Under the pieces are notes generated by a model. That model searched no databases. It had not been told where the DNA came from and saw only the letters and a list, made by a program, of their open reading frames with translations. The position numbers and the translations under genes were made by a program. Below, in pieces: positions 44,936 through 46,398 of a stretch of 52,936 bases of DNA (the stretch's first letter is position 1; every line of letters starts with the position of its first letter). The DNA lies in sequence record MT764207.1. The stretch is one strand, 5' to 3'. The stretch is from Escherichia phage JEP7.

Positions 44936-45367
44936 ATGGTTAATATAAGACAGAAAGGACAGAACTTTGAGCGTAAAATGGCTAAGAAGTTTAATAGCTC
45001 GTTCGGATTAACTGTTGAGCGCAATCTTCAACAGTCTATTAATGGCGGGGATGACTTGCTGGGTGTGCCGTTTTTCAGTGTTGAACTGAAGAAGCACAAT
45101 ACCAAGTCTATCGGAACATGGTGGAGACAGTGTGCGGCATCGGCAAAGGCTCAGAACAAGATGCCGGTACTGATATACGAACTACCAAGAAAACAGCCTA
45201 CCGTGGTGATGAATAAGGCTGATGTGATTGACTGTTTTCCAAGTGGCACGACTTTTAACGAGGCATCGAACCGCCTCTTTGTGGGTCTAGTAGAATTAAC
45301 ATGGGAACAATTTTGCCGGGTCTACAACTATTACGTTGCGCCCGGCACTCAATATCACGTCAATTAA
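44936..45367 (+). CDS. putative PD-(D/E)XK-type nuclease (Holliday-junction-resolvase-like)
   Basis: 143 aa; motif GGDDLLGVPFFSVELKKH consistent with D...ExK nuclease core; weak call. Confidence 0.3.
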   Translation: MVNIRQKGQNFERKMAKKFNSSFGLTVERNLQQSINGGDDLLGVPFFSVELKKHNTKSIGTWWRQCAASAKAQNKMPVLIYELPRKQPTVVMNKADVIDCFPSGTTFNEASNRLFVGLVELTWEQFCRVYNYYVAPGTQYHVN

Positions 45368-45549
45368 TCTTGTTTCAGCTCGTCACAAATGACACGCTGA
45401 TTTTTGGCAGGGATAATACCAAGATTCAGTAAGGTGTATGGACTATCGGCGGCACATTGTTCAACGGTAGTCCATTCAGTTTTGGATTCAACAATTTTGT
45501 AACTACAATCATGAGTAGCCACACATGTTGCCAGGATTAAGCCAATCAC
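45364..45549 (-). CDS. hypothetical small protein
   Basis: 61 aa, GTG start; hydrophobic N-terminus with LATC lipobox-like motif but no charged n-region. Confidence 0.25.
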   Translation of the reverse strand: MIGLILATCVATHDCSYKIVESKTEWTTVEQCAADSPYTLLNLGIIPAKNQRVICDELKQD

Positions 45550-45725
45550 AAGTAATCGCCTTCAACCAGGAACTCAAACAGTTGGTTGTAAACGTTGCAA
45601 CCTTTAGCGAAAGAGCTTTCAGCAGGTTTACCATCGCGGACGATCATCATATACTCACCGCCATGAATATCAACCCAATATTGCATGCCACCTTTGACCG
45701 TGTTACGTTGTAAGAATTTAAACAT
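45546..45725 (-). CDS. hypothetical small protein (not in ORF track)
   Basis: 59 codons; ATG overlaps upstream stop (TAATG); AAGGAG RBS; translation MFKFLQRNTVKGGMQYWVDIHGGEYMMIVRDGKPAESSFAKGCNVYNQLFEFLVEGDYL. Confidence 0.35.
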   Translation of the reverse strand: MFKFLQRNTVKGGMQYWVDIHGGEYMMIVRDGKPAESSFAKGCNVYNQLFEFLVEGDYL

Positions 45726-45970
45726 TATTTGCTCCTTATTCCAAGTTTATTCAATAACCAAATTGTCATGTCAACCCAGGTTAACGGTACAGTTTTCGGG
45801 GGTTGATAATTCCAGCAGCTTGCAGTTCTTTGTATTTCTGCTTGGCGCCGCTCCGCTTCGCGTAATACCGCATCGTCAGAAGTGCCGGCAGAAAAAAGAT
45901 CGGTAACACCAGATAAATCGCGTTGATTAACACGTCGAGCAATGTCATATAAATCATCCTTAGAAAACAT
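45725..45970 (-). CDS. hypothetical protein
   Basis: 81 aa; start overlaps the 3' end of the 41-codon ORF upstream. Confidence 0.3.
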   Translation of the reverse strand: MFSKDDLYDIARRVNQRDLSGVTDLFSAGTSDDAVLREAERRQAEIQRTASCWNYQPPKTVPLTWVDMTIWLLNKLGIRSK

Positions 45971-46085
45971 AAGCCAATACCATAAGAATTATCAGAAAGA
46001 TCCCAACCAGCTTCCTCATAGCCCGACCTTCAGCATATGCAGGATTCACAACAGAATACTCAACAACATGTTTACATCGGACCAT
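45960..46085 (-). CDS. hypothetical small membrane peptide (not in ORF track)
   Basis: 41 codons; GGAGG RBS 4 nt before ATG; C-terminal hydrophobic helix KLVGIFLIILMVLAYVF. Confidence 0.3.
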   Translation of the reverse strand: MVRCKHVVEYSVVNPAYAEGRAMRKLVGIFLIILMVLAYVF

Positions 46086-46197
46086 AAGGCCTCCACTTGT
46101 GGGTTAATTCAAGCATGAGGACTTTCATCAAATCCTCAGGATTGAATTAATTACCAGCTTTTAATCAAGCCCTGTCAGCGCCAGGACTTGACTAATA

Positions 46198-46398
46198 TCA
46201 CTCTATCATTACCTGAACTACTATTATACACTCTTTATTGAAGCGAGTAAACACTTTTCCACCATTAGTGCGTTTAGCCCCAGATTTTAGAGCTGACTGG
46301 CACCAGATATGCCACTCCTCAACTGTCAAGAATTTTTGCTCAGCTTTGGGTGGCAATCCATGGGCAAGGTCTACCGTCGTAAATTTGACTAGTGGCAT
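46198..46398 (-). CDS. hypothetical protein
   Basis: 66 aa from ATG 46398 (track ORF starts at a GTG at 46401). Confidence 0.3.
   Translation of the reverse strand: MPLVKFTTVDLAHGLPPKAEQKFLTVEEWHIWCQSALKSGAKRTNGGKVFTRFNKECIIVVQVMIE

What the first reader, a model, noticed from the sequence alone, without database searches (positions are those of the whole stretch)
45546..46085. Two small ORFs absent from the ORF track but with good translation signals
A 59-codon ORF (45546-45725, minus) starts at an ATG overlapping the upstream stop (TAATG) with an AAGGAG RBS. A 41-codon ORF (45960-46085, minus) has a GGAGG RBS 4 nt before its ATG and encodes a peptide ending in the hydrophobic helix KLVGIFLIILMVLAYVF. 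Both fill apparent gaps in a tightly packed block, which supports them being real.
Basis: seen in the sequence. Interest (0 to 1): 0.4.

Follow-up and report, generated by a model that had tools for sequence, protein, structure and literature searches.

The report
Two real, already-annotated small phage genes
Both small ORFs are real phage genes of unknown function: a 41-residue membrane-anchored peptide from a family shared by many unrelated enterobacterial phages, and a 59-residue soluble accessory protein. Both are already annotated in public records, so the finding is correct but ordinary.

Summary
ORF B59 (45546-45725, minus) and ORF D41 (45960-46085, minus) exist with the stated start codons, ribosome-binding sites and overlaps.

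Both are annotated CDSs in vB_EcoM_PiR, yarpen, BP63 and others, and both match PHROG families.

Both are real genes. Start codon and RBS are conserved in every relative. Only the proposed frame stays open in all relatives. dN/dS is 0.02-0.08 for B59 and 0.23-0.56 for D41.

- **D41** is a tail-anchored inner-membrane peptide of phrog_10979. It has a conserved cytoplasmic motif (EYTxxNPxYxEGRxM) and occurs in Rosemountvirus, Loughboroughvirus, rV5-like, phi92-like and Klebsiella siphophages.
- **B59** is a lineage-restricted accessory cassette with a 59-aa allele, a 65-aa allele, or absent. Its predicted fold is confident (pLDDT 94.9) and has no informative relative.

Published work on phage fHy-Eco03 found both homologues non-toxic in E. 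coli, and found the gene between them the most toxic of 32 tested.

That middle gene is the more interesting item. A conserved 55-aa membrane-protein ORF is nested inside the annotated 81-aa ORF. Both frames show signs of selection, so the published toxicity cannot be assigned to the 81-aa product alone.

The parts
45546..45725 (-). B59: 59-aa soluble accessory protein gene (phrog_34345). The predicted fold is a 4-strand beta-meander plus a C-terminal helix.
   Evidence: ORF. Annotated as UNY42536.1, yarpen gp18 and BP63 gp03. PHROG E=3e-46. dN/dS 0.02-0.08. pLDDT 94.9.
45732..45737 (-). Shine-Dalgarno AAGGAG, 6 nt upstream of the B59 ATG. The same RBS serves the A gene in phages that lack B59.
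   Evidence: Sequence. (A/C)AGGAG is conserved in all relatives.
45960..46085 (-). D41: 41-aa tail-anchored inner-membrane peptide gene (phrog_10979). It has an N-terminal cytoplasmic motif KHVVEYSVVNPAYAEGRAM and a C-terminal TM helix L26-F41.
   Evidence: ORF. Annotated as UNY42520.1 and as 'membrane protein' in yarpen gp16 and BP63 gp05. PHROG E=1.3e-23. Family alignment and profile search. KD(15)=3.07 with net +3 on the N side.
46090..46094 (-). Shine-Dalgarno GGAGG, 4 nt upstream of the D41 ATG.
   Evidence: Sequence. GGAGG is conserved in all 16 genomes.
45781..45948 (-). C55: 55-aa membrane protein gene (N-terminal TM, basic C-terminal tail; phrog_28081). It is nested in the +1 frame inside the 81-aa ORF, with its own SD AAGGA at 45957-45961.
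   Evidence: PHROG E=5.8e-42. Annotated in yarpen, BP63, birk, S144 (TMHMM N-out C-in) and KE25. The ATG is conserved in all 16, with a stop just upstream in distant relatives. dN/dS 0.33-0.58, against 1.15-3.1 for the other frame.
45725..45970 (-). C81: 81-aa ORF annotated in PiR, SE13, ZCSE2 and fHy-Eco03 (the 'toxic Gp05'). Its status is uncertain, and it is possibly co-translated with C55.
   Evidence: Open in all 16 genomes. The tail beyond the C55 stop is 3-periodic, 6/3/14. C55 synonymous sites are suppressed. Against it: no SD, the ATG lies inside D41's YVF codons, SE4 lacks the ATG, and pLDDT is 62.5.
45364..45549 (-). A61: 61-aa Cys-containing small protein gene. Its GTG start overlaps the B59 stop (GTGA). 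It is the last gene of the block.
   Evidence: dN/dS 0.06-0.27. Junction.
46104..46150 (-). Conserved leader hairpin (ATTCAA..TGAGGA...TCCTCA..TTGAAT), about 10 nt upstream of the D41 SD.
   Evidence: RNA fold z=-3.95 for the leader. Conserved from Rosemountvirus to ZCSE2. No Rfam match.
46161..46195 (-). Distal leader hairpin, inside a roughly 50-nt segment that looks like a deletion scar of an accessory gene.
   Evidence: The segment is absent from BP63 and birk. It keeps the GCTGGTAAT-TGA end of the gene present at this site in SE13.
46223..46251 (-). Candidate sigma-70 promoter TTTACT-17-TATAAT inside the 3' end of the upstream gene E67. It could drive D41-C55-B59-A61.
   Evidence: Consensus scan gives 10/12. 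Conserved in six Rosemountvirus genomes. This is a consensus match only.

Best explanation
Both ORFs are real protein-coding genes of a tightly packed minus-strand block of small genes, D41 - C55/C81 - B59 - A61. In the related phage fHy-Eco03 this block lies inside the 3.7-kb direct terminal repeat, so it is probably expressed early.

**D41** is a 41-residue tail-anchored inner-membrane peptide. About 25 N-terminal residues face the cytoplasm (positive-inside rule: RAMRK precedes the helix and nothing follows it). The last 16 residues form the membrane anchor. The cytoplasmic part carries the family motif (V/I)-E-Y-(T/S)-x-x-N-P-x-Y-x-E-(G/S)-R-x-M. The gene occurs as an independent unit in unrelated phages that infect Enterobacterales, next to different neighbours. 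I therefore infer that the motif docks on a conserved host protein at the cytoplasmic face of the inner membrane and changes its activity without killing the cell. The most likely role is protective, as a moron-type function such as superinfection exclusion or interference with a membrane-associated defence.

**B59** is a soluble 59-residue beta-meander-plus-helix protein. It is an exchangeable accessory cassette placed between a fixed RBS and the next gene, and it is translationally coupled to that gene (GTGA). I infer that it is a non-toxic protein-binding modulator of a host factor, and an anti-defence role is the leading guess.

Shown: both are coding, conserved, under purifying selection and members of their families; D41's topology is a sequence-based prediction; the homologues are not toxic. 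Inferred: early timing, host targets and biological roles.
For: **Both are genes**
- Annotated at the same coordinates in PiR, yarpen, BP63, birk, SE13 and PEA2-3.
- PHROG matches: E=3e-46 for B59 and 1.3e-23 for D41.
- ATG and SD conserved in all relatives.
- Only the proposed frame is open in all relatives.
- dN/dS is 0.02-0.08 for B59 and 0.23-0.56 for D41.

**D41 family**
- Y10, N14 and P15 are invariant. V8, E9, Y17, E19, R21 and M23 are nearly invariant. The TM segment is variable but hydrophobic.
- The profile search finds 39 cluster representatives, nearly all 32-58 aa.
- PVP-SE1 gp187, phi92, WPEC6 and Ss1 members all match phrog_10979.
- Neighbourhoods vary, including a position right after the tape-measure gene in Klebsiella siphophages.
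- Hydropathy 3.07 and net +3 on the N side. TMHMM 'N in C out' is noted in the S144 record.

**B59**
- pLDDT 94.9 from 10 sequences.
- The 65-aa allele shares the fold, TM 0.87.
- Cassette presence or absence at a fixed junction.

**Experiment (PMC8145870)**
- fHy-Eco03 g04 (98% identical to B59): NGS ratio 3.30, plating 0.67.
- g06 (the D41 homologue): 2.43 and 0.68. Both are non-toxic.
- The genes lie among the 11 genes of the 3699-bp terminal repeat.
Against: - There is no direct evidence of expression (transcript, ribosome footprint or peptide) for either protein in any of these phages.
- No function is known for any member of either family. There are no hits in Pfam, NCBIfam, PADLOC or by PDB sequence search.
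- D41's dN/dS (up to 0.56) is high for a coding gene, and its membrane segment changes quickly.
- The non-toxic results come from a cloning screen in which expression of such small products was not verified.
- The early-expression inference rests on position in one relative's terminal repeat and on analogy with T5 (from my own knowledge), not on data.
Confidence: 0.85

Rival explanations
1. One or both ORFs are chance open frames in a non-coding or differently coded stretch.
For: ORFs of this length are abundant by chance: 357 of at least 41 aa and 212 of at least 59 aa in the window. D41's dN/dS reaches 0.56 and its variable columns are only weakly 3-periodic, 25/23/32.
Against: The frame is intact in all relatives down to 33-54% identity, while all five other frames carry stops. 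ATG and SD are conserved. B59 dN/dS is 0.02-0.08. B59 folds at pLDDT 94.9. D41-like proteins with the same motif and architecture occur in unrelated phage lineages.
Confidence: 0.02
2. D41 is not an autonomous host-directed factor. Instead it is the dedicated partner (regulator or antidote) of the adjacent toxic membrane protein C55, and the two form a two-component membrane module.
For: D41 and C55 are adjacent in all 16 Rosemountvirus, Loughboroughvirus and Erwinia-phage genomes. The D41 stop overlaps the C55 SD. The two have complementary predicted topologies, N-in tail-anchored versus N-out/C-in. The DNA carrying C55 is highly toxic when cloned without D41.
Against: D41-family genes occur without any C55-like neighbour in PVP-SE1, phi92, Phapecoctavirus, Cronobacter phage Ss1, Klebsiella siphophages and metagenomic contigs. 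D41's membrane helix is its least conserved part, while C55's helix is nearly invariant. That is not the pattern expected for a helix-helix partnership.
Confidence: 0.15
3. D41 is a lysis-related or membrane-damaging peptide, such as a holin, antiholin or type I toxin-like peptide.
For: It is a very small single-pass membrane peptide, like many holins and type I toxins.
Against: The fHy-Eco03 homologue g06 was not toxic, with ratio 2.43 and plating 0.68. In S144 the lysis cassette (holin, endolysin, spanins; ORF34-37) is in a different cluster, far from this block. The most conserved part is the polar cytoplasmic motif, not the helix.
Confidence: 0.04
4. B59 is an anti-CRISPR-like or other anti-defence inhibitor related to AcrIF13.
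Confidence: 0.1

Closest known systems
phrog_10979 'membrane protein' (e.g. Salmonella phage PVP-SE1 gp187, BP63 gp05, yarpen gp16 / VOG6014)
   Same: D41 matches the profile end to end (E=1.3e-23). It shares the 37-45 aa length, the EYTxxNPxYxEGRxM motif and the C-terminal transmembrane helix.
   Different: Nothing substantive. D41 has two extra N-terminal residues compared with the 39-aa profile. The family has no known function.
fHy-Eco03 Gp04 and Gp06 (Viruses 2021;13:750, PMC8145870)
   Same: Gp04 is 98% identical to B59. Gp06 is the D41 orthologue, 65% identical over 37 residues. Gene order is the same.
   Different: Only these homologues have been tested experimentally (non-toxic in E. 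coli). In fHy-Eco03 the block lies in a 3699-bp terminal repeat, and the ends of the window's genome were not determined here.
Small inner-membrane superinfection-exclusion or moron proteins (T4 Imm, HK97 gp15), recalled from my own knowledge
   Same: They are small phage-encoded inner-membrane proteins that are non-essential and not toxic. In some phages the D41-family gene is inserted as a moron next to tail genes, as in the Klebsiella siphophages.
   Different: There is no sequence similarity. Imm and gp15 are larger with different topology. An exclusion phenotype has not been tested for any D41-family member.
Pre-early genes in the T5 terminal repeat, recalled from my own knowledge
   Same: Small genes of unknown or host-takeover function sit in a long direct terminal repeat and so are among the first DNA to enter the cell (fHy-Eco03 repeat).
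   Different: There is no homology. Timing has not been measured in Rosemountvirus, and stepwise DNA transfer is not known for these phages.
AcrIF13 (PDB 7fi4)

Membership tests
phrog_10979 (small tail-anchored phage membrane peptide) | Significant match to the family profile | tested here: met
   E=1.3e-23, residues 3-41 against profile positions 1-39 of 39. Distant members PVP-SE1, WPEC6, phi92 and Ss1 match the same profile.
phrog_10979 (small tail-anchored phage membrane peptide) | N-terminal polar motif (V/I)EY(T/S)xxNPxYxE(G/S)RxM | tested here: met
   D41 has VEYSVVNPAYAEGRAM. Y10, N14 and P15 are invariant in 13 diverse members, and the motif recurs in the 39 representatives.
phrog_10979 (small tail-anchored phage membrane peptide) | A single C-terminal hydrophobic helix that ends at or near the C-terminus, with total length about 37-45 aa | tested here: met
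   LVGIFLIILMVLAYVF is residues 26-41, with KD(15)=3.07. Actual membrane insertion is not testable here.
phrog_34345 (B59 family) | Significant full-length match to the family profile | tested here: met
   E=3e-46, residues 1-59 against 1-59 of 59. Homologues are found only in Rosemountvirus and Loughboroughvirus relatives.
Holins / lysis-cassette membrane proteins | Encoded in the lysis cassette next to the endolysin and spanins | tested here: not met
   In the collinear relative S144 the lysis cassette is ORF34-37 in cluster B, while the D41 orthologue is ORF73 in cluster E. The window's own lysis genes were not mapped.
Small toxic membrane peptides (type I toxin-like) | Expression is toxic to the host | tested here: not met
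   From the literature, not tested by me: the fHy-Eco03 g06 ratio is 2.43 and plating 0.68, so it is non-toxic. Expression level was not verified in that screen.
Anti-CRISPR AcrIF13-like proteins (for B59) | Specific structural or sequence similarity beyond a generic alpha+beta fold | tested here: inconclusive
Anti-CRISPR AcrIF13-like proteins (for B59) | Inhibition of a CRISPR-Cas or other defence system | not testable with these tools
   Needs plaque assays on defence-carrying strains.
Superinfection-exclusion inner-membrane proteins | Expression blocks infection or DNA entry by the same or other phages | not testable with these tools
   This is a functional definition. Only the contextual hints are available (moron-like distribution).

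The most novel reading that the evidence does not exclude
The annotated 81-aa gene between the two ORFs, orthologue of the experimentally 'most toxic' Gp05 of fHy-Eco03, is really two nested genes read in different frames. The conserved 55-aa membrane peptide C55 would be the toxic effector, while the 81-aa frame is also translated, at least through its conserved C-terminal part. D41, whose stop codon overlaps the C55 ribosome-binding site, would then be produced together with C55, and may modulate it.
Probability: 0.3. Interest if true: 0.55.

Novelty: already known. Interest (0 to 1): 0.2.

Why it matters
For the finding as posed, the value is mainly quality control. A 60-aa ORF cut-off hides real, conserved phage genes, and the D41-family gene is left unannotated in several deposited genomes, including phi92, muut, ALITA, inny and SD350.

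Two things go beyond that:
1. D41 belongs to a roughly 40-residue peptide family with an unusually well conserved cytoplasmic motif. It has spread among unrelated phages of Enterobacterales, which points to a common host target that nobody has identified.
2. The published toxicity of fHy-Eco03 Gp05 was interpreted through weak RecG similarity of the 81-aa product. The cloned fragment also contains a better-conserved nested membrane-protein ORF with its own strong ribosome-binding site, so that result may need re-attribution. This bears on efforts to mine phage toxic proteins as antimicrobial leads.

Tried and rejected
**No hit, or no useful hit**
- Pfam, NCBIfam and PADLOC scans of all six small proteins gave nothing significant.
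- PDB sequence searches with family profiles gave nothing.
- The afdb50 library was unavailable.
- A single-sequence homology search with D41 found only close relatives. The profile search was needed to reach further.
- IMG/VR gave no C55 relatives more distant than the isolates already in hand.
- Rfam had no match for the leader hairpins.
- A literature search for work on the D41 family found nothing relevant.
- The siphovirus-context family member was not found in E. coli genomes, so there is no prophage support for the moron idea there.

**Programmed -1 frameshift from C55 into the 81-aa frame: considered and judged unlikely**
- There is no canonical X XXY YYZ heptamer.
- The natural variants CGA>CAA and CGA>CTA do not create one.
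- A search with a synthetic fusion found no natural fusion protein.
- Conservation in the 81-aa frame (W53) begins upstream of the only slippery runs.

**Other ideas dropped**
- AlphaFold of the 81-aa product gave pLDDT 62.5, which neither supports nor excludes it.
- A61 as a lipoprotein was considered, but the N-terminal segment before the Cys is too short and lacks a typical lipobox. I did not pursue it.

Full report
**What the window is.** The window is a complete Rosemountvirus-type myophage genome of about 53 kb. It is collinear with Escherichia phage vB_EcoM_PiR (OM313461.1) and has the same length, but it differs at 145 of 4901 positions in the stretch compared, with no indels. The region of interest is a minus-strand block of very small genes, downstream of the primase/helicase and a RusA-like resolvase that lie on the other strand.

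**Checking the observation.** Both ORFs exist as described. B59 is 45546-45725 (59 aa, ATG) and D41 is 45960-46085 (41 aa, ATG, ending KLVGIFLIILMVLAYVF).
- B59's ATG shares one base with the TAA of the 81-aa ORF 45725-45970, and AAGGAG lies 6 nt upstream.
- D41 has GGAGG 4 nt upstream.
- ORF length by itself is uninformative. The window has 357 ORFs of at least 41 aa and 212 of at least 59 aa, against about 71 annotated genes.
- Only 58 ORFs of at least 41 aa begin at an ATG preceded by a Shine-Dalgarno motif, so the translation signals are the meaningful part of the observation.

**Already annotated.** Both ORFs are annotated CDSs at these exact coordinates in PiR (UNY42536.1, UNY42520.1). 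They are also annotated in PEA2-3, yarpen (gp18; gp16 'membrane protein', VOG6014), BP63 (gp03, gp05), birk and SE13. Both match PHROG families: B59 matches phrog_34345 (E=3e-46, unknown function), and D41 matches phrog_10979 (E=1.3e-23, 'membrane protein', category moron/host takeover). Pfam, NCBIfam and PADLOC give nothing.

**Are they real genes?** I compared the window with 15 relatives spanning Rosemountvirus (90-98% nucleotide identity), Loughboroughvirus (about 72-77%), fHy-Eco03-like phages and Erwinia phage SOI901.
- *B59:* dN/dS against seven relatives is 0.02-0.08, and variable columns at codon positions 1/2/3 are 8/3/24.
- *D41:* dN/dS is 0.23-0.56, so the constraint is weaker. The ORF is nevertheless intact in all 15 relatives down to 54% amino-acid identity.
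- ATG and SD are conserved everywhere.
- As a negative control, only the proposed frame is free of stops in every genome, and each of the other five frames is interrupted.

The chance-ORF explanation is therefore rejected.

**What D41 is.** The alignment shows a conserved polar N-terminal motif, a variable but always hydrophobic 16-17-residue segment, and usually a YVF end. Y10, N14 and P15 are invariant, and V8, E9, Y17, E19, R21 and M23 are nearly so.
- *Reach across phages:* tblastn found weak but full-length matches in many large myophages. Inspection shows the same motif and architecture in PVP-SE1 gp187, an unannotated ORF of phi92, Phapecoctavirus WPEC6 and the Cronobacter podophage Ss1. 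All of these match phrog_10979.
- *Family size:* a profile search of 1.84 billion representatives found 39 clusters at 50% identity, nearly all 32-58 aa.
- *Topology:* hydropathy (KD 3.07) and the positive charges before the helix (RAMRK, net +3), with nothing after it, predict a tail-anchored peptide with the N-terminus in the cytoplasm. This agrees with the TMHMM note in the S144 record.
- *Context:* neighbours differ between lineages. Here they are C55 and A61. In rV5-like and phi92-like phages it is a roughly 95-aa 'KGYYSLAYH...NDVF' family. In one metagenomic contig it is an HTH gene. In Klebsiella siphophages KLB24/28/29 the gene sits immediately after the tape-measure gene.

A small gene that moves alone between unrelated phages of Enterobacterales, keeping a cytoplasmic motif rather than its helix, most plausibly acts on a conserved host component at the inner face of the membrane. 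That last step is inference.

**What B59 is.** The family is confined to Rosemountvirus and Loughboroughvirus relatives.
- *Cassette behaviour:* it exists as a 59-aa allele or a 65-aa allele (33% identical; ZCSE2, KE25). It is missing from S144, AEV23, S1, SE1_KM, SOI901 and SE4. In every case the same RBS is followed either by B or directly by the A gene, and when B is present the A start overlaps B's stop.
- *Fold:* AlphaFold2 with only 10 sequences gives pLDDT 94.9, a four-stranded beta-meander plus a C-terminal helix. The ZCSE2 allele has the same fold, TM 0.87.

**Experimental evidence from the literature.** Kasurinen et al. (Viruses 2021;13:750, PMC8145870) screened 32 hypothetical genes of fHy-Eco03 for toxicity in E. 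coli.
- g04 (98% identical to B59) gave an NGS ratio of 3.30 and plating 0.67.
- g06 (the D41 orthologue) gave 2.43 and 0.68. Both are non-toxic.
- g05, the gene between them, was the most toxic (0.003 and 0.16), and this was confirmed in pBAD30.
- The same paper places g01-g11, which include this block, inside a 3699-bp direct terminal repeat. By analogy with the T5 terminal repeat (my own knowledge), that suggests early expression.
- The S144 paper describes the block as 'cluster E': low-GC small genes of unknown function, separate from the lysis cassette ORF34-37.

**The gene between the two ORFs.** Records disagree on the annotation here. PiR, SE13, ZCSE2 and fHy-Eco03 annotate an 81-aa ORF (45725-45970). 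Yarpen, BP63, birk, S144 and KE25 annotate a 55-aa membrane protein in the +1 frame (45781-45948, phrog_28081).

Evidence favouring C55:
- Its ATG is conserved in all 16 genomes, and distant relatives have a stop just upstream.
- It has a conserved SD (AAGGA or GAGGAG, 7-8 nt upstream).
- Its dN/dS is 0.33-0.58, against 1.15-3.1 for the 81-aa frame over the same nucleotides.

Evidence against the 81-aa ORF:
- It has no SD.
- Its ATG lies within D41's conserved YVF codons and is absent in SE4.
- Its AlphaFold model is poor (pLDDT 62.5).

Evidence that the 81-aa frame is nevertheless constrained:
- The 18 codons of the 81-aa frame beyond the C55 stop are 3-periodic in that frame (6/3/14, dN/dS 0.03-0.36).
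- A 26-nt block is invariant in all 16 genomes.
- C55's synonymous sites vary far less than those of neighbouring genes (9/32 against 41/53, p=1e-5). Mosaic recombination is a caveat here.
- Two metagenomic C55 variants (R51Q, R51L) are synonymous in the 81-aa frame.

A -1 frameshift is unlikely: there is no slippery heptamer and no natural fusions were found. I put true dual coding at about 50%. The screen cloned genes as NcoI-NotI fragments, which I take to mean from each annotated ATG. On that reading the g05 clone contains C55 together with its SD. The published toxicity and its RecG-based interpretation therefore cannot be assigned to the 81-aa product alone.

**The leader of D41.** A candidate promoter, TTTACT-17-TATAAT, lies in the 3' end of the upstream gene. 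The 112-nt spacer folds into two strong hairpins (z=-3.95).
- The proximal hairpin is conserved from Rosemountvirus to ZCSE2.
- The distal hairpin lies in a roughly 50-nt segment that is absent from BP63 and birk. It retains the 3' end of an accessory gene found at this site in SE13, which makes it a deletion scar.
- The site between E67 and D41 is an insertion hot spot, holding no gene or a gene of 300, 306 or 573 nt.

**Verdict.** Their functions remain unknown.
- D41: my best-supported reading is a non-toxic, autonomously mobile, tail-anchored inner-membrane peptide that acts on a host target.
- B59: my best-supported reading is a non-toxic soluble accessory modulator.
- The most interesting by-product is the nested C55/C81 gene and its bearing on a published toxicity result.

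Noticed in passing
window 45725-45970 (-), nested ORF 45781-45948 (-): Two overlapping frames are annotated alternatively in different GenBank records: an 81-aa ORF and a nested 55-aa membrane protein. Both show signs of selection. The orthologous fragment is the most toxic gene of phage fHy-Eco03, but the published work considered only the 81-aa product.
   Followed up: partly
window 46086-46197 (-): The 112-nt leader upstream of D41 folds into two strong hairpins (z=-3.95). The proximal one (46104-46150) is conserved across genera. The distal one (46161-46195) lies in a roughly 50-nt remnant of an accessory gene present at this site in SE13 and ZCSE2. The site is an insertion hot spot that holds no gene or a gene of 300, 306 or 573 nt.
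   Followed up: partly
window 46198-46398 (-): A 66-aa gene (E67, phrog_35966) is unannotated in the PiR record but annotated in yarpen and BP63. It is under strong purifying selection (dN/dS about 0.1), so it is a real gene missed in the closest public record.
   Followed up: partly
window 45364-45549 (-): The A61 gene starts with a GTG that overlaps the B59 stop (GTGA). In phages lacking B59 it starts with an ATG behind the same RBS. A second, very different allele exists (SE1_KM, SOI901, S1, SE4). That allele resembles PVP-SE1 gp188 (pairwise E=4e-6), which is the neighbour of that phage's D41 homologue.
   Followed up: partly
L017 (phi92, NC_023693.1) 1489-1605, and one search hits labelled 'none': The D41-family gene is not annotated in several deposited genomes: phi92, muut, ALITA, JLBYU50, PATM, inny, EspYZU08 and the Rosemountvirus SD350.
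   Followed up: partly
L028/L029 2501-2614; Klebsiella phages KLB24/28/29: A D41-family gene sits directly after the tape-measure gene in the tail module of 40-kb Klebsiella siphophages. That is a moron-like position.
   Followed up: partly
window 45699-45701 (codon 9 of B59): The window encodes Thr at B59 residue 9, while every relative whose residue 9 I saw aligned has Pro, and the closest relatives in the phage collection are uniformly 98.3% identical to the window's B59. More generally, the window has the same length and coordinates as PiR but differs at about 3% of positions without indels.
   Followed up: no
L013 (fHy-Eco03) 1-2986: In fHy-Eco03 the whole block (g01-g11) lies in a 3699-bp direct terminal repeat. 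I did not determine whether the window's genome has such repeats.
   Followed up: no
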